The position numbers were made by a program. Shown piece by piece: positions 49,601 through 52,600 of a stretch of DNA of 64,000 nucleotides. Within the stretch, counting starts at the first letter, position 1. Every line of letters starts with the position of its first letter. This DNA is from Escherichia coli (GTDB lineage Bacteria; Pseudomonadota; Gammaproteobacteria; Enterobacterales; Enterobacteriaceae), in the NCBI RefSeq assembly GCF_024298765.1, contig NZ_CP101210.1. One strand, given 5' to 3'.

Positions 49601-52600
49601 AAAACTGCGTGTTACGTTCGCCCTGGACTGTTGCGATCGTGAAGCCATAGACTGGGCCGCAAGCACGGGAGGTTACGATAAAGCGACAGTGCAGGATGTC
49701 ATGTTAGGAGCGATAGAAAAACGCTTTGGCGATAAAGTACCGGAACAGTCCATCCAGTGGCTGACAGATAACGGTTCAGCGTATAGAGCGCATGAAACAC
49801 GGCAGTTCGCCAGAGAGTTGAATCTGGAGCCCTGCACAACGGCAATCAGCAGTCCTCAGAGTAATGGAATGGCAGAAAGGTTCGTGAAAACGATGAAGGA
49901 AGACTACATCGCGTTCATGCCGAAACCGAATGTAAGAACGGCATTGCATAATCTTGCAGTGGCGATCGAACATTACAATGAAAACCATCCGCACAGTGCG
50001 CTGGGTTATCGCTCTCCGCGAGAATATCGACGTCAGCGGGTAACGTTAACTTAAGATACACCCCCTGTCTGGAAATAAGGGGGCAAGAACAATGATCAGA
50101 TTCCCTGGTGAGTAAGAATTTTACTTTCTGAACTCCTCTGAGAGTATTGACTTGGAGAAACACCAAAATAACGTCTAAATACATAAGTAAAGTATGAGAC
50201 ACTGGCATAACCACAGACCTTAGCTACTTTACTAATAGGATAACAACGAGTGCTGAGTAAATATTCAGCCATTTGCATCCTCTCATCAAGTATGATCTTA
50301 CTGAATGATACCCCCTCTTCTTTCAATTTCATCTTTAGTAAACTTTCGCTGAGATATAATCTTGATGATATATCCTTAAGACGCCATGGTGCAGATAAAT
50401 CCGTATGAATAATCGTTTTAACTTTAGCCCCTGTGCTTTTCAAACATCCAAACAGAAATACTCCAAATTGTTTTTCAGAAGAAAATGCAGAGAGACATGT
50501 AAAAGCAATAGACTCATCAAAAATTTCTATGTATTCAGCACAGTGATTAGCCCAACTAATTAATCCTTTAATTAAACTGAAGTCAGCAAAGTTTATTTTT
50601 AAATAAGATGGATATTCCCTACAATCAGAAATATCCCTTAAGTTATTAGCTTTCAAATAGCGACTAATAAACTCAGCGCCAAAATCCGCCACTATCACTC
50701 TTTCAGGATATGTCAGGAAAAAATCTCTAGAGCTAGAGTCGACAAGTACAGATGAACCTCTCTCCAGAAACACACTCTCTTTTCCGAAATAAACATCAAA
50801 GGACTCCAAAATCAATATAACTGAACATGTAGTTGCCATATCATCCACCCAATTTAACTGAAACCTGGATGAAGTATATGCATATAAAGTTCACTTTGCC
50901 AAACTTCAGTATAAAAAACCACATAAAAAATAGGGTGTGATAAAAAATACCGTAACAATAAAGCAAAGGATTATAAAATCCGTTACAGTTACAAATGATA
51001 CTCAAGAAACAATTCCTTAGGAAAAACTTATTTACAGCCAATAAGGGTAATGACTCGAACTTATTGATAGTGTTTTATGTTCAGATAATGCCCGATGACT
51101 TTGTCATGCAGCTCCACCGATTTTGAGAACGACAGCGACTTCCGTCCCAGCCGTGCCAGGTGCTGCCTCAGATTCAGGTTATGCCGCTCAATTCGCTGCG
51201 TATATCGCTTGCTGATTACGTGCAGCTTTCCCTTCAGGCGGGATTCATACAGCGGCCAGCCATCCGTCATCCATATCACCACGTCAAAGGGTGACAGCAG
51301 GCTCATAAGACGCCCCAGCGTCGCCATAGTGCGTTCACCGAATACGTGCGCAACAACCGTCTTCCGGAGCCTGTCATACGCGTAAAACAGCCAGCGCTGG
51401 CGCGATTTAGCCCCGACATAGCCCCACTGTTCGTCCATTTCCGCGCAGACGATGACGTCACTGCCCGGCTGTATGCGCGAGGTTACCGACTGCGGCCTGA
51501 GTTTTTTAAGTGACGTAAAATCGTGTTGAGGCCAACGCCCATAATGCGGGCAGTTGCCCGGCATCCAACGCCATTCATGGCCATATCAATGATTTTCTGG
51601 TGCGTACCGGGTTGAGAAGCGGTGTAAGTGAACTGCAGTTGCCATGTTTTACGGCAGTGAGAGCAGAGATAGCGCTGATGTCCGGCGGTGCTTTTGCCGT
51701 TACGCACCACCCCGTCAGTAGCTGAACAGGAGGGACAGCTGATAGAAACAGAAGCCACTGGAGCACCTCAAAAACACCATCATACACTAAATCAGTAAGT
51801 TGGCAGCATCACCAGCCTTCTTGAGGCTACCACCTGTTTTCAGGTGTCATTCAGACGTGATTTGCCCCAGATTGGGAAAGCACGCTTTTTTCTCAGCTAT
51901 CGTCCTCTTATTTTGCCGTTACATTTCTTTTTGCACTCTAATGATTAATTTACAATAATAATATCGGTAATTATTGAGTAATAATAAATTGATTATTGCA
52001 AATGTAATTTAATTCCATCTTCGCGTTATATTCCAATCTTTAATCTCCGCATGGAACAAGTTGCATGCGTGACTATATTAAGACAACTTATAACCACCAA
52101 AACATTTGCTTTGCAAGCAAAAACAGTGACCATTGACTCTAAGAAAATTCCGATCTATTGTTAGGGTCATCAAAGTTACTTAACAGTATTCCGAAATGAA
52201 AATACAAAGCAAGCTAATTGTCTTATTAAACATTATTATTGCATTTATATTATTTGAGCTTTTAGCTCAAAAATTTGGTTTGAGTACATTATTTTAAAGC
52301 AAGATAAACAATATCGGGCACTCTAGTTTTTATAATTAACAATTAAACGTCCATGAAATGTTATTTACTTTTCTTCGCTATTGTCATATCTTAATATAGT
52401 GGCTTACGCCACTCTACTTTCATCACATTTTGTACGTTTATGTACTCGCCATGAAGCTCTTTCATGGCGATTTTTTATTCTTAATCCAAGAACATACTCC
52501 CTACCTATAGCAAAATCACTTTTTTAACAAAAGAATAACGTATTTAGGTAATCATTACGAATTTACCCTATAGGTGCTACTGGCCATTCAATATCCGGTG

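What the first reader, a model, noticed from the sequence alone, without database searches (positions are those of the whole stretch)
50096..50848. Orphan AppY/EnvY/Rns-like AraC-family regulator as a prophage moron
The 250-aa ORF has a typical C-terminal AraC double helix-turn-helix but an N-terminal domain with no recognisable sugar-binding fold. That pattern matches the subgroup of horizontally acquired regulators that counter H-NS silencing and control acid resistance, adhesins or virulence genes. There is no adjacent target operon, so if expressed it would act in trans on host genes. IS1 lies 197 bp upstream of its start and may have replaced or altered its native promoter.
Basis: partly seen in the sequence, partly recalled or inferred. 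Interest (0 to 1): 0.6.

Follow-up and report, generated by a model that had tools for sequence, protein, structure and literature searches.

The report
PatE acid-resistance regulator, IS1-truncated allele
The ORF is a real prophage-borne AraC-type regulator, but it is the already characterised PatE of E. coli O157:H7 (246 of 247 residues identical), which switches on the host's acid-resistance genes; here it is a derived allele that lost its distal upstream DNA to IS1 and carries one change in a DNA-reading helix.

Summary
An intact ORF lies at 50096-50848 (-), most likely starting at ATG 50839 (247 aa). It has a C-terminal AraC double HTH (HTH_18, E 2e-14). It sits at the far end of a lambda-like prophage, between the tail-fibre genes and attR next to ybhB-bioA. 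IS1 ends exactly 197 nt upstream of the GTG.

It is not new. The protein is 246/247 identical to ECs_0287 / EDL933 CP-933H (OI-8, z0321). That gene is PatE, a published prophage-encoded AraC-like activator of gadE, gadBC and hdeAB that is RpoS-dependent. About 650 of 5426 complete E. coli genomes and three free lambdoid phages carry the gene.

Its closest chromosomal relatives are YdeO (35%), GadW (33%), AppY (28%) and GadX. A PsrB candidate is 37% identical. The predicted N-domain has an AraC/ExsA-type regulatory fold.

What is specific to this window is a derived haplotype:
- IS1 replaced 550 bp of upstream DNA and left no target duplication. A promoter-like site (10/12 match) remains.
- Arg170, a K/R-conserved position aligned with MarA R46, is Met.

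Each of these two changes is found in 100 genomes, and all other carriers have the ancestral state. Whether the haplotype weakens PatE is untested. Novelty: already known. Interest: low.

The parts
50096..50839 (-). patE coding sequence (247 aa from ATG 50839; the maximal ORF extends to GTG 50848, 250 aa). Residues 1-~132 form the AraC/ExsA-type regulatory domain plus helical linker; residues 136-241 form the double helix-turn-helix DNA-binding domain.
50330..50332 (-). Codon 170, ATG (Met) in the window where all ancestral-type copies have Arg. It lies in the recognition helix of the first HTH (SESLLK[R/M]KLKEEG) and aligns with MarA R46.
   Evidence: Variant table. Column composition is K27 R9 M1 N1 L1 T1 in a 40-sequence family alignment. 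MAFFT alignment with MarA. SNP-centred 55-mers give the Met allele in 100 genomes and the Arg allele in 555.
50873..50902 (-). Promoter-like site retained between IS1 and the gene: -35 TTGGCA, 18-nt spacer, -10 TATACT (10 of 12 matches). It ends 24 nt before the GTG and 33 nt before the ATG.
   Evidence: Consensus scan; sequence read. This is a consensus match only, with no transcript evidence.
50840..51045 (-). Retained native upstream region (206 nt to the ATG, 32% GC). It is 98-99% identical to the same region in free phages and in O157 Sp1.
   Evidence: blastn against L002-L005; composition profile.
51046..51813 (-). Complete IS1 (IS1A-type, 768 bp), transposase genes co-directional with patE. 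IRL lies at 51813 and IRR at 51046. No 9-bp target duplication. It replaces 550 bp present in intact phages, which is the signature of an IS1-mediated adjacent deletion.
   Evidence: Junction sequences and breakpoints; RefSeq annotation as IS1A family transposase with programmed frameshift; junction present in 100 genomes.
49602..50054 (+). Fragment of an IS3-family (IS2/ISEc48-like) transposase catalytic domain, 41 bp downstream of the patE stop. It travels with patE in free phages and in O157 Sp1.
   Evidence: RefSeq pseudogene annotations; phage annotations as InsD fragment; 99% DNA identity.
49309..49544 (-). Further IS3-family OrfA-like remnant between the patE module and attR.
   Evidence: ORF translation; RefSeq partial transposase pseudogenes.
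49084..49290 (-). Lambda-type attR: core ACTTTTTTATACTAA (49084-49098) followed by P-arm-like sequence. This is the prophage/host junction next to ybhB-bioA.
   Evidence: Pattern search, 1 mismatch, 0 expected by chance. Homology to phage genomes ends at 49081-49096. In ev099 the integrase gene follows the same sequence. The P-arm resemblance to lambda attP is from my reading of the sequence and from memory.
52563..56551 (-). Tail-fibre assembly gene (52563-53144) and side tail-fibre gene (53144-56551). These are the last structural genes of the prophage, upstream of the patE moron region.
   Evidence: ORFs; RefSeq annotation of the identical locus.

Best explanation
[quoted passage not shown] It is carried as a moron in the non-essential 'b region' of a lambda-like prophage integrated at attB-lambda, between the tail-fibre genes and attR. 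Shown here: (1) near-identity to the characterised O157 gene; (2) the two-domain architecture, with an AraC/ExsA-type N-domain and a double-HTH C-domain; (3) the phage position; (4) the IS1 rearrangement. Taken from the literature on the O157 protein: PatE is made mainly on entry to stationary phase in an RpoS-dependent way. It binds AT-rich sites in host promoters (hdeA -132 to -45) and raises transcription of gadE, gadBC and hdeAB. This increases acid survival and, probably through GadE, lowers LEE expression. Inferred for this window: transcription starts from the retained promoter-like site at 50873-50902, possibly with weak read-through from the co-directional IS1. The product acts in trans on the host acid fitness island. 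This copy is a derived haplotype, combining an IS1-mediated 550-bp upstream deletion with R170M in the first recognition helix. Its regulation and DNA-binding strength may therefore differ from those of the studied allele.
For: Identity to PatE:
- 246/247 identity to Sakai ECs_0287. The same protein is in EDL933 CP-933H, next to thrW, and is the only AraC-family gene in that prophage.
- PatE and PsrB are cited as prophage AraC regulators of AR2 (PMC10057817).

Family placement:
- Pfam HTH_18 at 2e-14.
- Full-length similarity to YdeO (34.7%), GadW (33.5%) and AppY (28.4%).
- phrog_1450 matches over the full length at 5e-95.

Structure:
- AF2 model with pLDDT 87.7.

Moron position and distribution:
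- Same gene order (tfa, patE, IS remnant, attP, int) in phages mEp332, ev099 and PhiR70_1.
- About 650 of 5426 complete genomes carry the gene.

Expression signals and composition:
- Promoter-like site with 10/12 matches is retained.
- GC is 31-38%.
Against: No expression or binding data exist for this allele.
- R170M removes a basic residue that is K or R in 36 of 39 other family members. It aligns with MarA R46, a base-contacting residue (MarA role from memory of Rhee et al. 1998).
- IS1 removed everything beyond -206, so distal regulatory input may be lost.
- The primary PatE papers (Bender 2012, Yang 2015, Tree 2011) were not readable here. The functional statements therefore rest on reviews and secondary citations.
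- The host acid fitness island lies outside the window, so I could not check that the targets are present.
Confidence: 0.78

Rival explanations
1. It is a PatE ortholog by descent, but this haplotype is functionally attenuated or decaying. R170M weakens major-groove contact by the first HTH, and the IS1 deletion strips distal regulatory DNA, so the gene contributes little to acid resistance in this host.
For: - Position 170 is K or R in 36 of 39 other family members, and Met is seen only in this allele. It aligns with MarA R46.
- Met170 and the IS1 junction are each found in 100 genomes. Each of the 8 copies without IS1 that I checked has Arg.
- Two derived lesions in one lineage fit relaxed selection.
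Against: - The ORF is intact and otherwise identical to the active protein.
- The haplotype persists in 100 complete genomes from varied hosts.
- The PsrB candidate of EDL933 has Thr at this column, and PsrB is reported to bind hdeA and gadE promoters, so a basic residue is not strictly required.
- A strong promoter-like site is retained.
Confidence: 0.17
2. IS1 has rewired expression. An outward or read-through transcript from IS1, rather than the native promoter, now drives the gene, giving constitutive or altered expression.
For: - IS1 is co-directional with the gene and ends 197 nt upstream.
- No terminator-like site was predicted on the minus strand between IS1 and the gene.
- IS1 replaced 550 bp of native upstream DNA.
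Against: - The consensus scan found no promoter at the IRR/flank junction. It found only IS1's own IRL promoter (51806-51779) and the native-type site at 50902-50873.
- The IS1 IRL promoter is weak and auto-repressed by InsA, and IS1 is transcriptionally polar (general knowledge, not tested here).
Confidence: 0.1
3. The regulator mainly serves the phage, for example by controlling tail-fibre, lysogeny or superinfection functions, rather than host genes.
For: - It is conserved in plaque-forming lambdoid phages right after the tail-fibre genes.
- A 53%-identical paralog family occupies the same region in other lambda-like phages.
Against: - The gene lies in the lambda b-region equivalent, which is dispensable for phage growth (general knowledge).
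- Published PatE targets are host acid-resistance and LEE genes.
- The gene survives in the highly degraded O157 Sp1/CP-933H remnant, which lacks most phage functions.
- It has no PADLOC defence-system match.
Confidence: 0.04

Closest known systems
[not shown]
   Same: 246 of 247 residues are identical. DNA identity is 99.3% over 1.4 kb, including the upstream 206 nt and the downstream IS3-family remnant. Length is the same (247 aa). It is prophage-borne, AT-rich, and has no adjacent target operon.
   Different: The window copy sits in a lambda-like prophage at attB-lambda (ybhB-bioA), not in the thrW remnant prophage. It has Met instead of Arg at position 170. IS1 has replaced its upstream region beyond -206, whereas Sakai keeps at least 640 bp.
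YdeO, GadW, GadX (chromosomal AraC-family regulators of the E. coli AR2/GAD acid-resistance system)
   Different: It is not an ortholog of any of them. The NCBIfam YdeO score is 147 bits against a cutoff of 348, and the GadX score is 109 against 500. It is phage-borne rather than part of the EvgAS-YdeO circuit or the acid fitness island.
AppY (DLP12 cryptic prophage, E. coli K-12)
   Same: [quoted passage not shown] It is 28.4% identical over 236 aa. It directly targets gadE and the AR2 genes and is induced in stationary phase (PMC10057817).
   Different: It is a distant paralog in a different prophage and has additional known targets (app, hya operons, RpoS stabilisation).
PsrA/PsrB (prophage-encoded secretion regulators, O157:H7)
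   Same: An AraC-like candidate in EDL933 OI-57 (EDL933_RS10010, 237 aa, near a PerC/Pch gene) is 37.4% identical over 235 aa. Published PsrB binds the same hdeA promoter segment as PatE, and also binds gadE.
   Different: It is a different subfamily, located in the late-gene regulatory region of the phage rather than the b region. I assigned the locus to PsrB by position in OI-57 only, without confirming it against the published sequence.
Rns/CsvR/ToxT (virulence AraC regulators with fatty-acid-binding N-domains)
   Different: Only 17-25% identity. TM-score is 0.42, with a different relative domain orientation in the model. Conservation of the fatty-acid pocket residues was not examined.

Membership tests
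[not shown]
   246/247 identity, no gaps. EDL933 and Sakai copies are identical to each other. Both alleles fall in one 90% cluster of 1788 members.
PatE ortholog group | Same genetic module: prophage-borne, with shared flanking DNA | tested here: met
   Window 51045-49618 matches Sakai Sp1 at 99.3% identity, including the downstream IS3-family remnant. The same module is present in three free lambdoid phages.
PatE ortholog group | Activates hdeA/gadE transcription and raises acid survival | not testable with these tools
   Known only from the literature on the R170 allele. The M170 allele has not been studied.
AraC/XylS family | C-terminal domain of about 100 aa with two helix-turn-helix motifs | tested here: met
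   Pfam HTH_18 at E 2.3e-14 and HTH_AraC at 1.2e-9. The model superposes on the GadX DNA-binding domain at 1.0-1.7 A.
AraC/XylS family | N-terminal AraC-type (cupin-like) regulatory/dimerisation domain | tested here: met
   [not shown]
YdeO (NCBIfam NF007407 equivalog) | Score above the curated cutoff of 348 bits | tested here: not met
   146.6 bits: a homolog, not YdeO itself.
GadX (NCBIfam NF007432 equivalog) | Score above the curated cutoff of 500 bits | tested here: not met
   109 bits, C-terminal part only.
Rns/ToxT-type fatty-acid-responsive regulators | Ligand pocket between the domains with conserved carboxylate-binding residues | not tested
   Only overall fold and sequence similarity were seen. 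Pocket residues were not compared.
Prophage moron | Accessory gene in a non-essential phage region with its own promoter, deviant composition, and variable presence among related phages | tested here: met
   It lies between tfa and attP/attR. GC is 31-38%. A promoter-like site lies upstream. Other lambda-like phages carry a 53% paralog at a similar genome position. An own terminator was not clearly identified.

The most novel reading that the evidence does not exclude
The IS1-deletion plus R170M haplotype is found in 100 of 5426 complete genomes, with poultry, pig and human isolates among those listed. It may be a selected, rewired patE allele in which altered DNA recognition or expression retunes acid-resistance or virulence regulation in that lineage, rather than a neutral or decaying variant.
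Probability: 0.12. Interest if true: 0.35.

Novelty: already known. Interest (0 to 1): 0.12.

Why it matters
PatE-type regulators show how prophages plug a single transcription factor into a conserved host stress network (GadE/HdeAB) and so change acid survival and virulence-gene timing. The only open point here is modest. A sub-lineage, about 15% of carriers, holds an allele with a truncated upstream region and a substitution at a conserved DNA-contact position. That allele offers a natural test of which residue and which upstream DNA matter for PatE function.

Tried and rejected
1. Frameshifted fragment of a longer gene: rejected. All phage and genome copies are 247 aa. The 306-308 aa database entries are rare frameshift or fusion products.
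2. IS1 outward or hybrid promoter: the consensus scan found none at the IRR junction. It is kept only as a low-probability rival.
3. YdeO or GadX orthology: rejected on the NCBIfam cutoffs.
4. Anti-phage defence role: no PADLOC match.
5. Structured RNA in the ORF-free AT-rich stretches around the gene: Rfam gave only a partial IS009 match inside the tfa 3' end.
6. Reading the primary PatE and PsrB papers (PMC3416394, PMC4288888): not held, so function rests on reviews.
7. Locating PsrA (z1789) in OI-50. I found no AraC homolog by tblastn in Sakai Sp6 from 1,545,001 (its first ~3.4 kb were not fetched) or in resequenced EDL933 1,625,001-1,675,000. A PsrB candidate was found in OI-57 instead.
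8. The word-indexed protein search returned only 15 close relatives. The exhaustive representative search was needed for a family alignment.
9. A tRNA scan of the phage upstream segment found no complete tRNA. The tRNA-Ser piece is a 3' fragment only.

Full report
**Observation.** The window holds an intact ORF at 50096-50848 on the minus strand, 250 aa from a GTG. RefSeq annotates the same gene, in a genome identical over this stretch, from the ATG at 50839 (247 aa, WP_000246058.1, 'AraC family transcriptional regulator'). On the minus strand the ATG is preceded by GGGTGGATGAT, and the GTG lies inside that Shine-Dalgarno-like motif. I therefore take 247 aa as the product.

Pfam finds HTH_18 at residues 161-238 (E 2.3e-14) and HTH_AraC (1.2e-9), and nothing in residues 1-140. 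The gene has 31-38% GC, against 52-58% for the neighbouring bioA/ybhB genes.

**Context.**
- Upstream in the window lie bioB, bioA and ybhB.
- A lambda att core, ACTTTTTTATACTAA, is at 49084-49098, with none expected by chance.
- Next come two IS3-family remnants (49309-49544 and 49602-50054), then the regulator gene, then a complete IS1 at 51046-51813.
- A 750-bp AT-rich spacer follows, and then tail-fibre assembly, side tail fibre, lom and J.
- Homology to free phage genomes stops at 49081-49096. In phage ev099 that same sequence is followed by int and xis.

The gene therefore lies in the equivalent of the lambda b region, just inside attR of a lambda-like prophage at the classical attB-lambda site. 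The moron placement is correct.

**What it is.** The protein is 246/247 identical to ECs_0287 of E. coli O157:H7 Sakai prophage Sp1. The surrounding 1.4 kb of DNA is 99.3% identical, including the downstream IS remnant. EDL933 carries the same protein at the same coordinates in the thrW-adjacent prophage CP-933H, and it is the only AraC-family gene there.

- A 2024 review states that PatE is encoded by z0321 on O-island 8. It describes PatE as an AraC/XylS activator of gadB, gadC, gadE and hdeAB that acts on the hdeA promoter between -132 and -45 and lowers six LEE genes (PMC10877973).
- ECs0287 is induced at the stationary-phase transition in Sakai (PMC2241611).
- The AppY paper cites PatE and PsrB as prophage AraC regulators of the AR2 system (PMC10057817).

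The primary papers were not available, so the functional statements are second-hand. The chain z0321 = CP-933H regulator = EDL933_RS01490 = ECs_0287 is nevertheless tight.

**Family relations (measured).**
- NCBIfam's best full-length match is YdeO (E 9e-43), but at 147 bits against a cutoff of 348. GadX scores 109 against 500. These are homologs, not orthologs.
- BLASTP identities: YdeO 34.7% over 248 aa, GadW 33.5% over 245, AppY 28.4% over 236, GadX 35% over the C-terminal 161, EnvY 38.6% over 127.
- An AraC-like gene in EDL933 O-island 57 near a PerC/Pch gene, which I take to be PsrB by position only, is 37.4% identical over 235 aa.
- PHROGs places the protein in phrog_1450 (E 5e-95, 'unknown function').
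- AppY in DLP12 occupies the analogous position after tfaD/tfaX.

**Structure.** An AlphaFold2 model built on a 40-sequence family alignment has mean pLDDT 87.7 and pTM 0.80. It shows a beta-rich N-domain (strands to about residue 83), helices at 88-132 and a seven-helix DNA-binding domain at 136-241.
- Foldseek gives full-length hits to Rns, CsvR and ToxT at E 1e-11 to 1e-8.

So the N-domain is an AraC/ExsA-type regulatory domain that sequence profiles miss. Whether it binds a ligand was not tested.

**Distribution.**
- About 650 of 5426 complete E. coli genomes hold at least 80% of the 50000-51060 stretch.
- Three free lambdoid phages (mEp332, ev099, PhiR70_1) carry a 97.6-98.4% identical protein in the same gene order. 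A 52.6% paralog sits at a similar genome position in many Lambda_ev phages.
- The 90% cluster has 1788 member sequences.
- The 306-308 aa entries are rare frameshift or fusion variants.

**The IS1 claim.** IS1 (768 bp, both inverted repeats intact, transposase co-directional with patE) ends at 51046. That is exactly 197 nt from the GTG and 206 nt from the ATG.

Alignment with the three phages shows that IS1 sits where they have 550 bp (L003 5254-5803). The IS1 flanks (AAGAAGGCT and CTTATTGGC) are not a target duplication. This is the signature of an IS1-mediated adjacent deletion (mechanism from general knowledge).

Within the retained 197 nt there is a promoter-like site: TTGGCA, 18 nt, TATACT, 10/12 matches, at 50902-50873. 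No promoter-like match spans the IS1 junction, and no terminator-like site lies between IS1 and the gene on that strand. TATACT is the hexamer favoured by sigma-S (my knowledge), which fits the reported RpoS dependence, but this is inference.

So IS1 altered the distal upstream region and probably did not replace the core promoter.

**A derived haplotype.** The single protein difference from O157 PatE is Met170 for Arg170, in SESLLK[R/M]KLKEEG, the recognition helix of the first HTH.
- In the 40-sequence alignment this column is K in 27, R in 9, and M, N, L and T in one sequence each. The T is in the PsrB candidate.
- The column aligns with the MarA residue known as R46, which contacts bases in the MarA-DNA crystal structure (from memory).
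- All eight copies without IS1 that I examined have Arg: three phages, Sakai, EDL933, APEC O78, STEC313 and A14.

| Feature | Genomes (of 5426) |
|---|---|
| Met170 allele (SNP-centred 55-mer) | 100 |
| Arg170 allele (SNP-centred 55-mer) | 555 |
| IS1 junction | 100 |
| Intact upstream junction | 546 |

The 55-mers can only seed if the SNP matches. The equal counts, together with the 25 listed hits that are 100% identical over a stretch containing both features, indicate one haplotype carrying both changes, in roughly 15% of carriers. I did not intersect the two genome lists. Whether this allele is weaker, rewired or neutral cannot be decided here.

**Verdict.** However, the object is the already characterised PatE, a member of the well-known set of prophage AraC regulators (PatE, PsrA/B, AppY) that feed into the GAD/HdeAB acid-resistance network. 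Novelty: already known. Interest is low. The only residual question is the functional state of the IS1/R170M allele.

Noticed in passing
L003 (phage ev099) 5364-5703; the same segment in L002 and L004; absent from the window (replaced by IS1 at 51046-51813): The DNA upstream of patE in free lambdoid phages contains about 340 bp that are 97% identical to the core E. coli chromosome at a tRNA-Ser gene: the 3' part of the tRNA (…GGTTCAAATCCCCCTCTCTCCGCCA) plus its downstream flank. Most of the 5422 genomes with any match to the 557-bp query match this segment. This suggests the patE module was once part of an element integrated at that tRNA-Ser gene and was picked up with host flank.
   Followed up: partly
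EDL933 NZ_CP008957.1 1625001-1675000 (L011) and Sakai Sp6 (L010): Reviews place psrA (z1789) in O-island 50/CP-933N. tblastn with PatE, YdeO, AppY, GadX, GadW and EnvY finds no AraC-family homolog in that region of the resequenced EDL933 genome, nor (PatE query only) in the fetched part of Sakai Sp6. Either the locus tag in the reviews is off or the gene lies elsewhere in the corrected assembly.
   Followed up: partly
window 52603-52700 (-), continuing beyond 52700: Partial match to Rfam RF02111 (IS009, a candidate small RNA family), E 1.8e-24. The match was cut by the edge of the searched stretch and overlaps the 3' part of the tail-fibre assembly gene.
   Followed up: no
window 49309-50054: Two IS3-family fragments in opposite orientations lie between patE and attR. 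They are conserved at 98-99% in plaque-forming phages and in O157 Sp1, so they are a fixed part of the patE module rather than recent insertions in this host.
   Followed up: partly
window 53144-56551 (-): The 1135-aa side tail-fibre protein has a very long Ala/Ser/Thr-rich repetitive stretch (roughly residues 110-470, with SAA/TSA-type repeats) ahead of its conserved C-terminal part. Tail-fibre length differs among otherwise similar prophages: 2.0 kb in mEp332, 2.5 kb in PhiR70_1 and 3.4 kb here.
   Followed up: no
NC_000913.3 583681-584430 (L009): AppY in the K-12 DLP12 prophage sits immediately after tfaD/tfaX near the prophage end. This is the same relative position as patE, which suggests this phage locus repeatedly hosts AraC-type acid-resistance regulators.
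   Followed up: partly
window 51814-52562: A 750-bp spacer of about 30% GC lies between IS1 and the tail-fibre assembly gene, with no ORF over 48 aa. It is conserved at 98% in the free phages. Its function is unknown.
   Followed up: no
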